DNA of 64,000 nt from Myxococcota bacterium. GTDB lineage: Bacteria; Myxococcota; XYA12-FULL-58-9; JABJBS01. Below the pieces are notes generated by a model. That model saw nothing but the letters and a program-made list of their open reading frames with translations, did not search any database and was not told where the DNA came from. The DNA is taken from the NCBI GenBank assembly GCA_036339465.1, contig JAYZAY010000078.1, forward strand, positions 6,021 through 70,020. Reading direction: 5' to 3'. This document shows, one piece after another, positions 798-11,246 of the stretch. The position numbers and the translations under genes are program-made. Each line of letters starts with the position of its first letter. The first letter of the stretch is position 1.

Positions 798-1805
798 ATG
801 TTTCGTTTATTACACCACACCCTCTTTGCTTTCGTTCTCGTAACCTTTGTTTCTGGATGCATCAACGCCCCACCTTTGCCCCCCCAGTCCCAGACGACCG
901 AATCGTCTGGCAACGTTGATCTGCCCACAAACTCGGAAGAAGCGAGTGACAATCTAGCAACCCATTTTCCAAGCACCGAGGAAACAGAGGCAAACACCCA
1001 CGCCACAGAAACCACAGACACAAATACCGACATCACAGAAACCGAGGCTGCAACTTCAGAAACAAATAGCGAGACCACAACGCCGGATCCCACAGAAGAT
1101 GACCCAGCAGAGAGTGAGAACGAACAACCAACAGAACCCAAGAGCAGCGACACTTCAGCCGAACAATCCCCCCCTCCCACCGATTCCCCAGAAGAAGAAG
1201 AAGAAGAAGAACCCGTGGACACCCATCATCCAGAAGATGGTAGCGAGCAACCCACCCAACAAGCCACCTCCCCTGAAGACGAAGAAGCGGTGGAATCCGA
1301 AAGTGACCCAACCCCCACCCCACTTGTGAGCTTAGCCTTAATCGACCGAAACACCAGTTCAGATACCTACGAGCAAGATGTGCAAGCCACCGATTTCCGT
1401 TCCAAAATCAGTGCTTGGTACTTCTTTAACGCCGGCTGAAGTTACTGCCGTAGCCAGTTTGGTTACTTGAATAAAATGCAAGATGAATTCAACAATGAAG
1501 GATTGGATATTCGGATTCTCGCGGTGGACTTACCCAATATGGATATCAGCTCTGGAATGCAGACAATCCATCAAAAGGGAAGCCTGCCTGCACTACAAGA
1601 TACACCTGAAATTCATTTGGGGGGTGTTTGGAACACCACATTTCGGGATGTCGTCATCGTGGGAAAAAACGGGGAAAGACTTCAAATTGAAATCGATGGC
1701 ACGCTTAAGGACACACTGAATTTAACCCATCATTCCCTAGGACTAAACGAATATTACAATACCCTCAAAGATTTTCTATTGAATGCCCATGAACATGACG
1801 ATTAA
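798..1805 (+). CDS. Probable selenoprotein: lipoprotein with acidic Pro/Thr/Glu linker and C-terminal thioredoxin/redoxin-like domain, UxxC motif (335 aa, Sec214)
   Basis: ATG 798, signal peptide with lipobox VSGC. TGA at 1437-1439 reads SAWYFFNAG-U-SYC-RSQFGYLNKMQDE in frame into track ORF 1467-1805. Hairpin directly downstream. Redoxin-like motifs ILAVD, LPALQD, VWNTTFRDVVIVGKNG. Confidence 0.85.
1191..1211 (+). repeat. (GAA)7 trinucleotide run encoding poly-Glu in the linker
   Basis: gaa x7 read directly, in frame. Confidence 0.9.
1440..1468 (+). promoter_or_regulatory. Candidate bacterial SECIS element
   Basis: Stem GTAGCCA (1450-1456) / TGGTTAC (1460-1466) with one G-U pair. Apical loop GTT starts with G, 17 nt after the UGA. 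Confidence 0.65.
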
Positions 1806-4604: not shown

Positions 4605-5620
4605 TTACACTCCAGAAAAACGACGTAATGTGCCCCGATTCTGCTTCAAATTGCCCTCAAAAGTCGTCTCGGGCATCATGTGAAGGGTCTTATCCTTCGA
4701 TAAAACGCGGCTAAGCGGTTCCAGGGATTTCTCGTTAGAATCTGCCGCAACGGTTAAGGTATCAAAGGTACTTCGATTGGCTGCATTTTCTTCAGGAAAA
4801 TACTTGTTCATCATTTGTGAGGCTTCATCATGCTCCATATTGAAGAGTTTGCTGCGAATTACCTTGTACACCGCCTTAAATGTTGCGGGCTCATACCAAA
4901 ATACGCCATTCACGGCACCGAAGAAATTGCACTGTTCTTTTTGGCAGGCATCGTTTCCCAAATTGCCTACCATTTTGTTAATCACTGTGGATTCAGGCAA
5001 ACAATGAATCAAATAGTGACCCGAAACATATGAGCTATTGAAGTAATATAATTGTTCCATAAAGTGACCGTAGCTTATTAGAGAAAGAACAGGCAATGAA
5101 TATTAGACTTCACTTTTGTGATAAAAATGGTTCAATTGTTGCTGAACCATTCTCTGAACCATTCTCCCATTCGGGATTCGCAGGCCCCGCACTGTAAAAT
5201 ATACTCGAGAACGAGCATATAGAAAATATAGAAAAAGCCTTCGAAAGCGGAGAAGCTCTTCGCTGCATCATCGAGCAATGAGGTGTGGTGCTATTATATT
5301 TTTCGTCGATGACCGCTCGCCATCTTCTTGGATATCTTGATAACCTCTCACAAGTGGGTCCGAGGAAGAGAAAGAGAGTAAGTTATAAAAGATTGTCCGG
5401 CCCATAGAGACACCTGTAGACCTTCTCCTCCAAGTCACTCAGAATATATTTTTATCCAGCCAGTCCCATCAGGTCTTTGAGGATGTTTAGTTTATTGGGT
5501 GGCTCATCATGCCCATTGAGATCATGGTAAGTTTTGATCTTTTGATTGCGGTCAATCCCTCCTGTTGATCTCATTTCGACTTACCTTGGGGACAAGTCGG
5601 TTCGATATCGAGAAATTTTT
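4605..5620 (-). pseudogene. CylC/AurF-like dimetal-carboxylate enzyme remnant
   Basis: FTVRGLRIPNGRMVQ(RMVQ)QQLNHFYHKSEV*YSLPVLSLISYGHFMEQLYYFNSS...CQKEQCNFFGAVNGVFWYEP resembles the family C-half as I recall it. In-frame TAA at 5105-5103; metal motif eroded; 5' part unrecognisable, so boundary approximate. Confidence 0.55.
5142..5165 (+). repeat. 12-bp tandem duplication CTGAACCATTCT x2
   Basis: Read directly; duplicates RMVQ on the minus strand. Confidence 0.9.
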
Positions 5621-7741: not shown

Positions 7742-7927
7742 CTGTATTAATTATATTTTCTTATTTCTGTCCTCGGCTAGATACGAATGCTATGATCGGC
7801 TTTTGTAAAAGAGATAAAAAATAACCCCACAATTGAAAGAAATCCCGTATGTTGGGGATTGCAACTTTGACGTTCCGCAGCAATACGAACCAGGAATATT
7901 GCGGAATGGTGGGAGGTAGGTATCAAA

Positions 7928-8374
7928 ATGCAAGTTCGAGACTTAATGACAGTTGAATTGGTAACCATCGGCGAACATGAATCCCTCAATCTGGCCGACG
8001 AAATGATGAAGCTGGCCCGCGTTCGACAATTGCCAGTCATTGAAGACCAGCAACTGGTGGGCCTCCTAACCCAAAAGGACTTAATGAGAGCCCAAGTTAG
8101 CTCCATCGCCGACCTTGAAGAGGATGAATCCAAGGAAATCAACCAAACCATTCCTGTAGGGGCAGCCATGAGTACAGATGTCATGACCATCGGTCCTGAT
8201 GAACCCGCCCTTGAAGCGGCCGAACGCCTCAAAGCGCATAAAGTGGGCTGCCTGCCCGTGGTCGACAATGAAAATCTAGTGGGCATGATTACCGAAACCG
8301 ATTTCCTGCAATTGGTCATCAAGGCACTCCGACAGAACACCAAGGCAGAAACGACCAAGGCCGTGCACTCGTAG
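7928..8374 (+). CDS. CBS-domain pair protein
   Basis: VRDLMT, RQLPVIE..LVGLLT.KD, GCLPVVD..LVGMITETD; GGAGG RBS. Confidence 0.93.
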   Translation: MQVRDLMTVELVTIGEHESLNLADEMMKLARVRQLPVIEDQQLVGLLTQKDLMRAQVSSIADLEEDESKEINQTIPVGAAMSTDVMTIGPDEPALEAAERLKAHKVGCLPVVDNENLVGMITETDFLQLVIKALRQNTKAETTKAVHS

Positions 8375-8740
8375 GCCGCGAGAAAACGACGGACAATCTG
8401 AATCCCATTGAAAGACTTGCCAAGAAAAGGCACGGGCGTTCCCACCAGTGCCAGAGCGTTGAACCCAGAACTGCCCATTAGAAACGTTGCCCCCCATGAG
8501 CCGCCTAGGATTTCGCGCGACCTGCTGAAAAAGAATCCCAAAGCCTGGGAGACTCAAAAATACACACAAAAATCCGACAATTATCCCAGTTTTTCACCCG
8601 TCCGCCCTTTTCCTCACAAATCTAGACCGAAAGAGAAATCCAGTTGCGGGCCACAACGCCGCCTCAGCTGCGATTTTCGAAGTCTTTTTTCTCCAAGCTC
8701 TTCAATCAATCTCCGGATTGATGCTAGAGTTTAGGCAGTC

Positions 8741-9276: not shown

Positions 9277-10048
9277 AAACTGATGATTGCCGATAATAAA
9301 GCAGCCATAGCCGGGGCATGAATCCGTAAGACATCAACAGCCGCGCCTACAACATAGTCAATGATTACGAGAGACCCAAGTTGGCGGGATACTGACATCC
9401 TTGCCCAAGGGCATTGGTCGCTGGACTCCTTCCCTTTCTTTGCCGACGACAGGAATAGCCAAATTACGCTTACAATTACAACTTACCGTCTCTCTCGGGA
9501 AACCATACGGCACCCTCGTCAAGTATGACCCCCAAGAAAAAATAAAACCTCCATCGTAAGTCACGTTGCCCGCGGCGAGGAGCACTACATTTTTAATTCA
9601 ATGGTGAAAGTAGTAGAAAAGGCCACCAAAACCATCGAAAGAGAAAACGCGTCTTTTCTGGCCCTACTAAGTATGGAGCAACTCCTCCAAGCCGCGCTCA
9701 TGGGAGATGTAAAAATTTGAAGATTTACAAACTCAAGTCTTAGTCTAGATGGGCCACTCATTAGAGAATCCATAATGAAATCAAAACCCTTCCTGGATGA
9801 ATCCGATACTGAGATATTCATCGAGAAAGGAGATACCTTGCACAAAAAAAATCAGGGTGGTCGATGATTCGTTTGCGTCTGTGAGAAGTTTCAATATGCA
9901 TCCACGTTTCCTCCACTACGATACCCCGGTGTTAGTCAACATCATCGTTGCTAAAGACGCGATCTGCCTCCGCAAAACTTTCTACAACAACATTCGTGAA
10001 GAAGTGACCAAACCTCTCAAAATTCTCGACGACTTAAAGATTGAATAG
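9277..10048 (+). pseudogene. Phospholipase D / cardiolipin synthase-like remnant
   Basis: KLMIADNKAAIAG (9277), WRDTD (9382), and second HKD motif H-K-K-[+1 in A8 run at 9844-9851]-IRVVDD..SFNMHPR..YD. Internal stops and frameshifts. Confidence 0.75.
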
Positions 10049-10238
10049 ACATGAGACAATCGCTTCATTAAAAGATTGTTTCTTACAATCATCTTTAACT
10101 CAAAAAGCTTCGCACAAGCCAATAGTTAAGTTCCGTGGGTTCGAACTGGAGTGGCCCCATTCCTTTAATCACGGCTTATTCTTGGTTCTGACTTCTCATC
10201 CCTGGTATAGAACCAAGAGAATAGAAAAACTTGGAAAT

Positions 10239-11246
10239 ATGAACCGCCAATCTACCAAATATTTATTCGCTTTCCTTCTAGCCATACTTTATGCAGCTCC
10301 AAGCCATGGACAACGGCCTCTTTCTCTCAACTATAGCCAAACAGAAGCTCACGACAGCTGGGACTATTCCCTCGAATTGGCACTGGGTTTCGCCATGGGC
10401 GATCGAACAAACTTCAATGCCCCCCCCTACCTCTTCCCCTATTTAATGGAACATATTCAGTCCCGAGCTATCCGCTTCAACCTCGACTTAATCCTATCCC
10501 TAACAGAACGCACCAAGATCCAGTTTAACTTCCCACTTATCGCCCGCGAGGTATGGGCCACGCAGAGCGGACTCCAAGTCAGCTCGGACCAAACCCTACC
10601 ACCAAAAAGCCATCAGTATCTCGATGTCGGCGCCCAGCAGCCCTCTCTCAATATGGCCTACCAGTTCGCTAGGTATGACTGGGGATATTTTGCTTTAGAA
10701 ACCGGCGTATCCTTCCCGGTGGGAAACCCTGGAATCTCCTCTGGTTTTCCTAAATCGATACCCACAAGCCATGAGCGGGTGCGGTATTCCCTTGGTGGCT
10801 CGTCCTTAATCCATATCGAAAACTTTTCAATCGCAGCAAACTACTTGTTCCATATCTATCCGGGAAACAGTGCATCGTATTTATTAAGAAGATTTCATTC
10901 CAATTTCTTCACAAACGGATCTTTCGTATTCCACTACACACACCAAGTAAAATCCAGATTAAACTACCAAATCAGCCGCGACTTTACCCTGGCCCTAACT
11001 CCCAGTTGGCAATTAATCTTCCCACCTGATCTTAAAGACTACAACGGCATCACGAGTTACGTCAGATACAAGATGGTTCATGAAATTCTTATGGGCGCAG
11101 CAATTCAATATAGAATCGACTCAAAACAGTCTCTGAGCATAACGTTAACAGAACCCATCATCTCCAATTGGGATCGCGATCCCTTCTTCCCAATCACCCT
11201 ACCCACAAGAAGCATAGGTATTGCATGGTGCTGGACAAGTTACTAA
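10239..11246 (+). CDS. Secreted hypothetical protein, probable outer-membrane beta-barrel
   Basis: Signal peptide from ATG 10239; alternating aromatic/amphipathic strands; aromatic C-terminus; overlaps the next gene. Confidence 0.6.
   Translation: MNRQSTKYLFAFLLAILYAAPSHGQRPLSLNYSQTEAHDSWDYSLELALGFAMGDRTNFNAPPYLFPYLMEHIQSRAIRFNLDLILSLTERTKIQFNFPLIAREVWATQSGLQVSSDQTLPPKSHQYLDVGAQQPSLNMAYQFARYDWGYFALETGVSFPVGNPGISSGFPKSIPTSHERVRYSLGGSSLIHIENFSIAANYLFHIYPGNSASYLLRRFHSNFFTNGSFVFHYTHQVKSRLNYQISRDFTLALTPSWQLIFPPDLKDYNGITSYVRYKMVHEILMGAAIQYRIDSKQSLSITLTEPIISNWDRDPFFPITLPTRSIGIAWCWTSY

What the first reader, a model, noticed from the sequence alone, without database searches (positions are those of the whole stretch)
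798..1805. Hidden selenoprotein: UxxC thioredoxin-fold lipoprotein split by gene callers at an in-frame TGA
Seen: the ORF ends in ...SAWYFFNAG-TGA and continues without frameshift as AGT TAC TGC (S-Y-C) RSQFGYLNKMQ into the next ORF. This puts U-S-Y-C where a thioredoxin/redoxin CxxC belongs (after a hydrophobic strand, before a helix). The downstream ORF has only a weak TTG start. Known: UxxC motifs are typical of bacterial selenoproteins of the thioredoxin/peroxiredoxin-like fold. Inference: a 335-aa exported Sec redox lipoprotein, possibly of a little-described family.
Basis: partly seen in the sequence, partly recalled or inferred. Interest (0 to 1): 0.88.

Follow-up and report, generated by a model that had tools for sequence, protein, structure and literature searches.

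The report
Split selenoprotein: exported thioredoxin-fold lipoprotein
Two neighbouring "genes" are really one gene for a membrane-anchored redox protein whose active-site residue is selenocysteine, encoded by a TGA that gene finders read as a stop; the protein family is already curated at NCBI, so this is a correct but fairly ordinary find.

Summary
Window 798-1805 (+) is one 335-codon frame with a single in-frame TGA, at 1437-1439 (codon 214), giving G-U-S-Y-C-R.

The read-through protein passes the curated cut-off of NCBIfam NF053656, "TUGYCR motif thioredoxin fold (seleno)protein" (128 bits against 100).

- In 401 genomes of the same phylum, 35 of 36 above-cut-off matches carry one TGA in this column. 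The other has Cys.
- A 7-bp hairpin starts 10 nt after the TGA. It is 97.8% paired across 33 Sec forms, and 5 of 7 pairs show compensatory changes. Cys forms pair in 43% of cells.
- The genome has selA, selB, tRNA-Sec and a selD with its own in-frame TGA.
- AlphaFold (pLDDT 93.9) gives a ResA/TlpA-like thioredoxin fold with Sec at the start of helix 1.
- The N-terminus has a signal peptide and lipobox, followed by a ~155-residue acidic linker.
- Public protein sets hold the gene only as 213-aa and 109-aa fragments.

Extras: an Arg replaces the fold's cis-Pro, as in peroxiredoxins, and the family is homologous to bacterial SelP_N-like proteins.

Verdict: a real selenoprotein and a divergent new member of a known, barely published family. 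The substrate is unknown.

The parts
798..1805 (+). Complete selenoprotein coding sequence: 335 codons plus TAA stop at 1803-1805
   Evidence: open frame with one TGA; NF053656, 128.3 bits against a cut-off of 100, residues 179-330; the public gene call also starts at ATG 798.
798..860 (+). Lipoprotein signal peptide, residues 1-21, ending in the lipobox V-S-G-C (Cys21 codon 858-860)
   Evidence: Read directly. The lipobox consensus is recalled; no signal-peptide predictor was available. In one search most family members show a lipobox-like x-x-[GAS]-C shortly before the domain.
861..1328 (+). Low-complexity linker of about 155 residues, rich in Glu, Thr, Pro, Ser and Asp (residues 22-177)
   Evidence: Most members have about 20 residues here. 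Relatives in the same order have acidic linkers plus a PKD/Ig-like domain (L023: PKD 25.1 bits) or GTD repeats (L025).
1329..1802 (+). Thioredoxin-fold redox domain (residues 178-335) of the TUGYCR family
   Evidence: alignment A2, 29-41% identity to the core members, 20% to the sister-group row L027; AlphaFold2 pLDDT 93.9, pTM 0.90; best Foldseek hits ResA, E 8e-8, TM 0.6-0.7.
1437..1439 (+). UGA codon read as selenocysteine (U214), first residue of the U-S-Y-C redox motif
   Evidence: same column as TGA in 35 above-cut-off matches and Cys in 1; model residue 37 precedes helix 38-56.
1446..1448 (+). Cys217 codon, the resolving Cys of UxxC
   Evidence: Invariant column C40 in A2.
1450..1466 (+). 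SECIS-like hairpin inside the coding sequence: 7 bp (1450-1456 with 1460-1466), loop GUU, 10-nt spacer after the UGA
   Evidence: present in the minimum-free-energy fold; -6.1 kcal/mol alone; 97.8% of cells paired, 5 of 7 pairs with compensatory changes, 0 of 500 shuffles reach this, slid controls 33-59%, RNAalifold finds the same helix; A29 and G30 of the loop region invariant.
1644..1646 (+). Arg283 codon: near-invariant Arg of the 'YRDV' strand, aligned with the cis-Pro position of the thioredoxin fold
   Evidence: R106 of A2 at least 90% conserved; aligned with the Pro of 3hdc, ResA and 2lrn in 3 of the 3 printed alignments that cover it.

Best explanation
Window 798-1805 is one gene. Its UGA at 1437-1439 is decoded as selenocysteine by SelB and tRNA-Sec, guided by a SECIS hairpin at 1450-1466 that lies inside the coding sequence. 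This much is shown by comparative evidence. The product is a 335-residue lipoprotein precursor: signal peptide and lipobox Cys21, a long acidic flexible linker, and a C-terminal thioredoxin-fold domain of the NCBIfam TUGYCR family, with Sec214-x-x-Cys217 at the start of helix 1. The architecture is shown; export and lipidation are inferred from the sequence. The catalytic cycle is inferred. The selenolate of Sec214 attacks an oxidised substrate outside the cytoplasm. Cys217 resolves the intermediate into an internal selenenylsulfide. An envelope reductant re-reduces it; the genome has one DsbD/CcdA-type membrane protein. The family keeps the xCxxCR dyad of TlpA/ResA-type reductases but has an Arg where they have the cis-Pro, as peroxiredoxins do. 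I therefore slightly favour a peroxide or hydroperoxide as substrate (about 45%) over a protein disulfide or sulfenate (about 40%), with 15% for something else such as metal or chalcogen handling. The confidence figure applies to the claim 'real selenoprotein gene encoding an exported UxxC thioredoxin-fold oxidoreductase', not to the choice of substrate.
For: Family: NF053656 at 128.3 bits against a cut-off of 100 and 121.9 bits in the genome search. Sec/Cys column: 35 of 36 above-cut-off matches in 401 genomes have exactly one TGA; it lies in the same column in all 35 (32); the one without a TGA has Cys there (L069). Seven weaker paralogues have W-C-x-Y-C-R. SECIS: on 33 Sec forms the hairpin is 97.8% paired, 5 of 7 pairs have compensatory changes, 0 of 500 shuffles reach the observed values, slid controls give 33-59%, and RNAalifold predicts the same helix independently. 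The codons for residues +5 and +9 co-vary (S..Y, A..H, G..R, S..F and others), so the RNA pairing shapes the protein sequence. Cys forms at the same columns pair in 21 of 49 cells, and in 5 of 7 in L069. A conserved G in the apical loop is the feature marked in published bacterial SECIS figures (PMC2357884 is not the id; the paper is PMC2398784, figure-legend passage). Machinery: selA 439.9 bits with selB 301.5 bits beside it, selD 300.5 bits with one TGA in ...SSAG-U-AAK, tRNA-Sec 70.6 bits, called tRNA-SeC (tca) by ARAGORN. TGA is otherwise a normal stop: it ends 16 of 35 open frames of at least 250 aa in the window. Similarity spans both sides of the TGA. Fold: pLDDT 93.9, Sec column just before helix 38-56; Foldseek top hits are ResA, TlpA-like, DsbE, CcmG and lipoprotein thioredoxins. 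Arg at the cis-Pro position; the Prx rule comes from PMC2757866 (passage read). Possible electron donor: DsbD_TM match at 73 bits.
Against: There is no direct evidence of selenium incorporation or expression; all support is comparative. Folding the window's 71 nt alone is not better than shuffles (z = -0.47), and the hairpin alone is only -6.1 kcal/mol, so the SECIS case rests on covariation. Related sequences can beat column shuffles without any structure, as the tool warns, which is why the slid controls and the Cys forms matter; one Cys paralogue (L022) still pairs 6 of 7. Rfam gave no match in the window. The window's copy is the lowest-scoring above-cut-off member. Its motif is G-U-S-Y-C-R rather than T-U-G-Y-C-R, and it has a 9-residue insertion. 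Two of the 34 genomes with an above-cut-off match showed no selA at E <= 1e-40: G003 (86% complete) and G235 (96% complete). Two library homologues have Trp in the column. On function: no gene neighbour recurs; no Pfam or NCBIfam model of a characterised enzyme passes its threshold; the Prx PxxxTxxC motif is absent; I could not inspect model coordinates to confirm that Arg283 lies next to Sec214.
Confidence: 0.9

Rival explanations
1. The TGA is a true stop. Either there are two separate genes (a 213-aa acidic lipoprotein and a ~110-aa protein), or this is a pseudogene made by a Cys-to-stop mutation.
For: Table 11 and the public gene calls give two ORFs. TGA is the commonest stop in the window. 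There is no expression or protein data, and no RNA holder was listed.
Against: The stop would cut a single thioredoxin fold in two, between strand 1 and helix 1. Both halves are conserved as one domain. The same TGA is kept in 35 of 36 above-cut-off matches across many genera, followed by a co-varying hairpin that the Cys forms lack. A decaying pseudogene would not keep this.
Confidence: 0.03
2. The TGA is read through as something other than Sec (Trp, Cys or Gly), by a reassigned code or by near-cognate suppression.
For: Two library homologues have Trp in this column with the rest of the motif intact (P0029, P0084).
Against: TGA ends 16 of 35 long open frames in the window. The selA and selB matches have no internal stops. 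The full Sec machinery is present and selD has a TGA at its own Sec site. The column alternates with Cys, as expected of a Sec/Cys pair. The Trp rows are most simply gene calls made under a TGA=Trp table; I could not check their DNA.
Confidence: 0.02
3. Rival on function: the protein is a TlpA/ResA/CcmG-like reductase of protein disulfides (for example for cytochrome c or copper-protein maturation, or repair of oxidised envelope proteins), not a peroxidase.
For: The best structural and sequence neighbours are ResA, TlpA, DsbE and CcmG. The x-C-x-x-C-R dyad is of their type. It appears extracytoplasmic (lipobox), and a DsbD-type donor is present.
Against: The cis-Pro that these proteins keep, and that is thought to help bind substrate polypeptides (PMC2757866), is replaced by Arg. 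The ResA and TlpA NCBIfam models score 19 and 12 bits against cut-offs of 170 and 230. No cytochrome-maturation or copper gene lies next to it in the window or in 7 diverse loci.
Confidence: 0.4

Closest known systems
NCBIfam NF053656, redoxin_TUGYCR: 'TUGYCR motif thioredoxin fold (seleno)protein'
   Same: Scores above the curated cut-off over the whole 146-position model. It shares the U/C-x-Y-C-R core, the thioredoxin fold, the SECIS hairpin and the lipoprotein leader with the other members.
   Different: It is the lowest-scoring above-cut-off member in the phylum sample, only 29-41% identical to the core members. The motif is G-U-S-Y-C-R. It has a 9-residue insertion and a ~155-residue acidic linker where most members have about 20 residues.
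TlpA / ResA / CcmG (DsbE) extracytoplasmic thiol-disulfide reductases, the cytochrome maturation proteins
   Same: Best fold matches (ResA E 8e-8, TM 0.6-0.7) and best sequence matches in the PDB (3hdc, ResA, DsbE). Redox dyad followed by Arg at the start of helix 1. Anchored outside the cytoplasm.
   Different: Sec instead of the first Cys. Arg instead of the cis-Pro. Far below their NCBIfam cut-offs. No cytochrome-maturation context.
Peroxiredoxins (AhpC/TSA, PF00578), and the published categories 'Prx-like thiol:disulfide oxidoreductase (UxxC)' and 'Prx-like 2' selenoproteins
   Same: AhpC-TSA is the best Pfam hit (23-25 bits; matched by 16 of 26 alignment members at E <= 0.1). Arg occupies the cis-Pro position, as in Prx (PMC2757866). 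The reviews list Prx-like UxxC selenoproteins (PMC13188914 and PMC9312934 tables). Zhang and Gladyshev 2008 describe a marine 'Prx-like 2' group with low similarity to SelP_N (PMC2398784).
   Different: Below Pfam's gathering score of 26. No PxxxTxxC motif. Whether any published category contains this family could not be checked, because their accessions and supplements were not available to me.
Selenoprotein P N-terminal domain (Pfam PF04592, SelP_N) and its bacterial look-alikes
   Same: A paralogous bacterial group passes the SelP_N cut-off at about 37-51 bits against 23.2. It includes this genome's own Cys copy on contig C40 and one Sec form. It is homologous to the TUGYCR family over 154 columns (hhalign probability 99.9%, E 4e-34), with the redox dyads aligned.
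   Different: The window protein does not hit SelP_N at E <= 1. Only 1 of 26 A2 members does, and that one (L027) belongs to the sister group. I did not align an animal SELENOP sequence, so 'same Sec position as SELENOP' is inference, not a result.
Surface lipoprotein thioredoxins such as pneumococcal Etrx2
   Same: A lipid-anchored thioredoxin-fold domain facing outward; among the Foldseek hits (4hqz and 2yp6, E 1e-5).
   Different: Those are Cys proteins with a cis-Pro, and as I recall they partner with methionine sulfoxide reductase. No Msr gene is nearby here.

Membership tests
NCBIfam NF053656 (redoxin_TUGYCR) | HMM score at or above the curated cut-off of 100 bits | tested here: met
   128.3 bits for the read-through protein, residues 179-330 on model positions 4-146; 121.9 bits in the six-frame genome search.
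NCBIfam NF053656 (redoxin_TUGYCR) | T-U-G-Y-C-R motif with Sec or Cys at its second position | tested here: met
   The window has G-U-S-Y-C-R. U, Y, C and R are kept, and the T and G positions vary within the family (AGUSYCR in L042, USYCR in several, SGU and TGU in others). Y39 and C40 are invariant and R41 is at least 90% conserved in A2. The motif is taken from the model's name; I could not read the model's own description.
NCBIfam NF053656 (redoxin_TUGYCR) | Thioredoxin fold | tested here: met
   AlphaFold2 pLDDT 93.9, pTM 0.90; 385 PDB chains at E <= 0.001, led by ResA and TlpA-like proteins.
Bacterial selenoprotein gene (SelB-dependent UGA recoding) | In-frame UGA with conserved coding sequence on both sides | tested here: met
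Bacterial selenoprotein gene (SelB-dependent UGA recoding) | Sec/Cys pair: homologues carry TGA or Cys in the same column | tested here: met
   35 TGA and 1 Cys among 36 above-cut-off matches. Of 159 domain hits in the best 150 library representatives: 74 Cys, 72 not covering the column (63 post-TGA stubs), 2 Trp, 11 other.
Bacterial selenoprotein gene (SelB-dependent UGA recoding) | SECIS stem-loop immediately 3' of the UGA with a conserved G in the apical loop | tested here: met
   Hairpin 1450-1466, 10 nt after the UGA. 97.8% paired, 5 of 7 pairs compensatory, G30 invariant. Cys forms pair in 43% of cells. The single-sequence fold is not significant and Rfam gave no match. The criteria come from PMC9312934 and PMC2398784; the spacing rule is recalled.
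Bacterial selenoprotein gene (SelB-dependent UGA recoding) | selA, selB, selD and tRNA-Sec in the same genome | tested here: met
   All four are above their cut-offs. ARAGORN calls tRNA-SeC with anticodon tca. selD itself carries a TGA in ...AG-U-AAK.
Bacterial selenoprotein gene (SelB-dependent UGA recoding) | Selenium actually incorporated at the UGA | not testable with these tools
   Needs 75Se labelling or mass spectrometry.
TlpA/ResA/CcmG thiol-disulfide reductases | Conserved cis-Pro at the N-terminus of strand 3 | tested here: not met
   The family's near-invariant Arg (window R283) aligns with the Pro of 3hdc, ResA and 2lrn in 3 of the 3 printed alignments that cover it. The rule is from PMC2757866. 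It was not checked on model coordinates.
TlpA/ResA/CcmG thiol-disulfide reductases | Curated model thresholds (ResA NF002854, TlpA NF047696) | tested here: not met
   19 bits against 170 and 12.2 bits against 230.
Peroxiredoxin (AhpC/TSA, PF00578) | Pfam gathering score of 26 bits | tested here: not met
   23 bits for the whole protein and 25 bits for the domain alone.
Peroxiredoxin (AhpC/TSA, PF00578) | Arg at the cis-Pro position | tested here: met
   with PMC2757866.
Peroxiredoxin (AhpC/TSA, PF00578) | PxxxTxxC active-site motif (recalled) | tested here: not met
   The window reads W-Y-F-F-N-A-G-U, with no Pro at -7 and no Thr at -3. Most members have H at -3 and T at -1.
Selenoprotein P N-terminal domain (PF04592) | Pfam gathering score of 23.2 bits | tested here: not met
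   No hit at E <= 1. Only 1 of 26 A2 members hits it, the sister-group sequence L027. Homology to the SelP_N-positive bacterial group is strong.
Bacterial lipoprotein | Signal peptide ending in a lipobox [LVI][ASTVI][GAS]-C (consensus recalled) | tested here: met
   Residues 1-21 end in V-S-G-C. Similar leaders precede the domain in most members. No predictor was run, and lipidation cannot be tested here.

The most novel reading that the evidence does not exclude
The TUGYCR lipoproteins and their SelP_N-like sister group may form a bacterial clade of exported selenocysteine enzymes that sits between the cytochrome-maturation reductases and the peroxiredoxins: a CxxC-type dyad together with a Prx-type Arg at the cis-Pro site. 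They may also be the prokaryotic kin of the UxxC domain at the N-terminus of animal Selenoprotein P. If so, an extracellular Sec-based peroxide or hydroperoxide reductase existed in bacteria before, or beside, SELENOP. The marine organism in this window would then tether such an enzyme on a ~155-residue acidic stalk to police oxidants at its surface.
Probability: 0.2. Interest if true: 0.6.

Novelty: new member of a known kind. Interest (0 to 1): 0.35.

Why it matters
For annotation: this gene, and most of its relatives in public protein sets, are stored as meaningless fragments. In the best 150 library representatives, 63 of the 159 domain hits are stubs that begin just after the TGA, and the named ones are called 'hypothetical protein'. 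Searching six frames with NF053656 while reading through TGA recovers them cleanly.

For biology: the family gives an unusually clear example of a SECIS hairpin shaping protein sequence, since residues +5 and +9 after Sec co-vary because their codons pair. It adds an exported, lipid-anchored Sec enzyme whose active site mixes features of TlpA-type reductases and peroxiredoxins. It also links, by strong profile homology, to bacterial proteins that match the Selenoprotein P N-terminal domain.

None of this is a surprise in kind to a selenoprotein specialist, but the family appears to be uncharacterised biochemically.

Tried and rejected
Rfam scan of the whole window at gathering thresholds: 0 matches, so no curated SECIS family applies.

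Folding the window's 71 nt alone: not distinguishable from shuffles. Covariation was needed instead.

Gene context: the window's neighbours are MazG-like, CbiX, a hexapeptide transferase, a 2Fe-2S ferredoxin, an SDR and CheX, with a divergent Cys-rich lipoprotein of more than 1925 aa upstream. Ten flanking ORFs from 7 diverse loci gave HD-GYP/GAF, a Ser/Thr kinase, an ABC exporter, ABHD18, a penicillin amidase, Polysacc_synt_3 and a beta-helix protein, and 3 had no family. Nothing recurs. An all-against-all clustering of flanking ORFs was dominated by overlapping antisense frames in high-GC loci and by synteny within one genus, and I discarded it.

The promoter and terminator scan found nothing useful: 0 promoter-like sites and 1 terminator-like site on the other strand.

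The genome-contig scan with A2 back-translated the motif with Cys, so it could only find Cys forms. It found one, in a Verrucomicrobiae MAG (L073), and says nothing on Sec forms.

The search for homologous proteins with the single domain found only the window's own two fragments.

selA co-occurrence is only weakly informative. selA was found in 32 of the 34 genomes with an above-cut-off match and in 264 of the other 367, because Sec use is common in this phylum and related genomes are not independent.

Sequencing runs: no RNA holder was listed. The laid contigs are short, and none spans the whole gene or bridges the TGA by 31 letters.

No solved SELENOP structure turned up when searching the PDB with the sister-group profile.

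A2 holds 26 of the 36 domain references printed. I left out L049, L055, L057, L058, L062, L063, L066, L068, L071 and L072 as near-duplicates of rows kept. A2 includes L027, which belongs to the sister group.

Literature limits. 'TUGYCR' occurs in 0 papers. PF04592 occurs in 3 papers, none relevant by the listing. Haft and Tolstoy 2025 (PMC12013261), the paper most likely to describe such motif-named families, is not held, so I cannot say the family is unpublished. Supplements were closed and might list members of the 'Prx-like' categories. What I saw of each paper: PMC13188914, PMC9312934, PMC2398784, PMC2757866, PMC6155587 and bioRxiv 10.1101/2022.07.06.499078, passages found by term search only; everything else, search listings only.

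Full report
OBSERVATION. The + strand frame that starts at ATG 798 runs to TAA 1803-1805 with a single internal stop, TGA at 1437-1439 (codon 214). The sequence around it reads ...SAWYFFNAG-U-SYCRSQFGYLNKMQ.... Under table 11 the frame falls into an upstream ORF ending at 1439 and a downstream ORF from TTG 1467. The public protein collection holds exactly these two pieces: a 213-aa protein from ATG 798 and a 109-aa protein from ATG 1476. The only correction is that the downstream piece also has an ATG start.

WHAT FAMILY IT IS. Read through the TGA, the protein matches NCBIfam NF053656, 'TUGYCR motif thioredoxin fold (seleno)protein', at 128.3 bits against a curated cut-off of 100. The match covers residues 179-330 and nearly the whole model. 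Pfam gives only sub-threshold AhpC-TSA (23 bits against 26) and Redoxin hits. The gene therefore belongs to a family that NCBI curators already regard as selenoproteins.

IS THE TGA A SEC CODON? Four independent lines of evidence agree.

(i) Sec/Cys column. A six-frame search of 401 genomes of the same phylum found 36 matches above the cut-off in 34 genomes. Of these, 35 contain exactly one TGA and one contains none. I located the TGA in all 35: 32. It is always the first residue of U-x-[Y]-C-[RQS]. The member without a stop (L069) has Cys there...HAS-C-PYCR.... Seven weaker paralogues read W-C-x-Y-C-R. In an exhaustive HMMER search of 1.84 billion cluster representatives, 883 proteins match at E <= 1e-10. 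The best 150 give 159 domain hits. Of these, 74 have Cys in the column and 72 do not reach it; 63 of the 72 begin at residue 1-3 of the stored protein, which is what a gene caller produces when it restarts after a TGA. Two have Trp with the rest of the motif intact, and 11 have other residues and have mostly lost the second Cys too.

(ii) Conservation on both sides. The 26-sequence domain alignment A2 is conserved before the TGA (DFxLxDVNPxS...VSGWYF) and after it (UGYCRSQFG...LPxLQD...YRDVV...NLT).

(iii) SECIS. Ten nucleotides after the UGA, a 7-bp hairpin (window 1450-1456 paired with 1460-1466, loop GUU) is present in every Sec form. On 33 aligned Sec forms, 97.8% of cells are paired and 5 of 7 pairs show changes on both sides. 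None of 500 column shuffles reaches the observed pairing or covariation, and sliding the 3' arm by 1-3 columns drops pairing to 33-59%. RNAalifold predicts the same helix without being told. Loop-region positions A29 and G30 are invariant, and a conserved apical-loop G is the feature highlighted for bacterial SECIS elements in PMC2398784. The stem is built from the codons of residues +4/+5 and +8/+9, so the amino acids at +5 and +9 co-vary (S..Y in the window, A..H, G..R, S..F, G..L elsewhere). As a natural control, Cys forms at the same columns pair in 21 of 49 cells across the seven paralogues and in 5 of 7 in L069. One of them, L022, still pairs 6 of 7. The window's hairpin alone is weak (-6.1 kcal/mol), and the local fold is not better than shuffles, so this argument is comparative.

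(iv) Machinery. The same genome (92.8% complete) encodes selA (439.9 bits) next to selB (301.5 bits). It has selD (300.5 bits) with its own in-frame TGA in ...SSAG-U-AAK, the UxxK Sec site listed for SelD in PMC13188914. It also has a tRNA-Sec (70.6 bits; ARAGORN tRNA-SeC, anticodon tca). TGA is otherwise the commonest stop in the window, ending 16 of 35 long open frames, so the code is not reassigned.

One weaker point: selA was found in 32 of the 34 genomes with an above-cut-off match, against 264 of the other 367. The two exceptions are G003 (86% complete) and G235 (96% complete).

Independent DNA: a contig from another study's marine metagenome matches 1219-1451 without a difference, TGA included, though it runs only 12 nt beyond it. 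A loose end in a further run reads as another family member with TGA before GGC at the same place.

ANATOMY OF THE PROTEIN. Residues 1-21 form a signal peptide ending in the lipobox V-S-G-C. Most family members have a similar lipobox about 20 residues before the domain, so these are lipoproteins as a rule. Database relatives from other lineages instead carry PEP-CTERM-like tails or dockerin domains (P0016, P0019, P0022, P0026), so an extracytoplasmic location is the common theme.

In the window's copy, residues 22-177 are a low-complexity stretch rich in Glu, Thr, Pro, Ser and Asp. Relatives in the same order have acidic linkers plus a PKD/Ig-like domain (L023, L024) or GTD repeats (L025).

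Residues 178-335 fold, with pLDDT 93.9 and pTM 0.90, into a thioredoxin fold, and the Sec column sits immediately before helix 38-56 of the model. Foldseek's best PDB matches are B. subtilis ResA (E 8e-8, TM 0.6-0.7), followed by Geobacter thioredoxin-family proteins, DsbE, CcmG, mycobacterial DsbE/F, Sco proteins, a Bcp peroxiredoxin, a plant GPx and the pneumococcal surface lipoprotein Etrx2. Sequence profiles reach the same TlpA-class structures only weakly (E 2e-4 to 1e-2).

MECHANISM. What is shown: one gene, a conserved UGA with a SECIS, and a thioredoxin-fold UxxC domain behind a lipoprotein leader.

What is inferred: Sec214 is the attacking nucleophile and Cys217 resolves the intermediate into a selenenylsulfide. 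The oxidised enzyme is then recycled by an envelope reductant; a single DsbD/CcdA-type membrane protein is encoded on contig C48 (73 bits).

The substrate is open. The xCxxCR dyad and the fold neighbours point to TlpA/ResA-type disulfide reductases. Against that, in all three printed alignments that cover the region (3hdc, ResA, 2lrn), the family's near-invariant Arg ('YRDV', window R283) occupies the position of the cis-Pro. According to the thioredoxin-fold atlas (PMC2757866, passage read), thioredoxins and cytochrome-maturation proteins keep that Pro, which probably helps bind substrate polypeptides. Peroxiredoxins have an Arg there that activates the peroxidatic Cys. The family therefore mixes the two active-site types. 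I put a peroxide or hydroperoxide substrate at about 45%, a protein disulfide or sulfenate at about 40%, and other roles at about 15%. Gene context does not help, because nothing recurs next to the gene in the window or in seven diverse loci.

RELATION TO WHAT IS KNOWN. Membership of NF053656 is met on score, motif core and fold. Membership of the ResA and TlpA models, of Pfam AhpC-TSA and of Pfam SelP_N is not met on score.

A sister group of bacterial lipoproteins (W-C-x-Y-C-R) does pass Pfam's SelP_N cut-off at about 37-51 bits against 23.2. It includes a Cys copy in this same genome on contig C40 and one Sec form, L027. It is homologous to the TUGYCR family across 154 columns (hhalign 99.9%, E 4e-34). 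Zhang and Gladyshev noted in 2008 a marine Sec-containing 'Prx-like 2' family with low similarity to pfam04592 (PMC2398784), so that link has a precedent.

The 2022 and 2026 reviews list several UxxC thioredoxin-, redoxin-, TlpA- and Prx-like selenoprotein categories. Neither the word TUGYCR (0 papers) nor any NF05xxxx identifier appears in what I could search. Haft and Tolstoy 2025 is not held.

VERDICT. It is a divergent new member of a family that is already curated, so novelty is modest. The added value lies in four things: the clean SECIS covariation, the evidence that public protein sets truncate the family systematically, the hybrid reductase/peroxiredoxin active site, and the homology to SelP_N-like proteins.

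Noticed in passing
G000 contig C85:34722-35633 (locus L010), outside the window: The genome's selenophosphate synthetase SelD is itself a selenoprotein, with an in-frame TGA in ...SSAG-U-AAK. A 6-bp hairpin follows about 17 nt after the TGA in the minimum-free-energy fold.
   Followed up: partly
G000 contig C40:33310-33543 (locus L022:1147-1896, - strand), outside the window: The same genome has a Cys-form paralogue, a 250-aa lipoprotein with W-C-G-Y-C-R. It passes Pfam's Selenoprotein P N-terminal domain cut-off (41.2 bits against 23.2). Its codons at the SECIS columns still pair 6 of 7.
   Followed up: partly
L074:3-5777 (- strand) = contig C78 just upstream of the window; the gene starts about 240 nt before window position 1: A divergently oriented giant lipoprotein (more than 1925 aa, running off the contig end). 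It has a Thr/Ser/Asp-rich linker after its lipobox and many Cys-rich C-D-G-x-D-N-D-C-type repeats, in the same 'lipobox plus low-complexity stalk' style as the selenoprotein.
   Followed up: no
P0028 (612 aa, protein library): The top library hit (464.9 bits, 5 matched stretches) has tandem TUGYCR-like domains. The three complete copies have Q or D in the Sec column, and two of them keep a Cys at the second position. It looks like a repeat protein that has lost the first redox residue.
   Followed up: no
P0029 and P0084 (protein library): Two homologues have Trp exactly in the Sec column, with the rest of the motif intact (...W-S-Y-C-R, ...W-I-Y-C-R).
   Followed up: no
L023:1489-2559 (-), L024, and proteins P0016, P0019, P0022, P0026: The family varies in architecture. 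Relatives in the same order have a PKD/Ig-like domain between linker and redox domain. Other lineages have C-terminal dockerin domains (one record named as a Pirellulaceae MAG) or PEP-CTERM-like tails. All appear extracytoplasmic.
   Followed up: partly
window 4605-5096 (-), 7777-8541 (-), 10041-11246 (+): Three sizeable ORFs near the finding (163, 254 and 401 aa) have no Pfam family at E <= 0.001.
   Followed up: no
window 1443-1483, run X2 record 2: A 198-nt marine metagenome contig aligns only over the motif and SECIS stretch, with 4 differences. Its flank reads as another family member with TGA before GGC. The nucleotide-level conservation of this short stretch across organisms fits an RNA constraint.
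   Followed up: no
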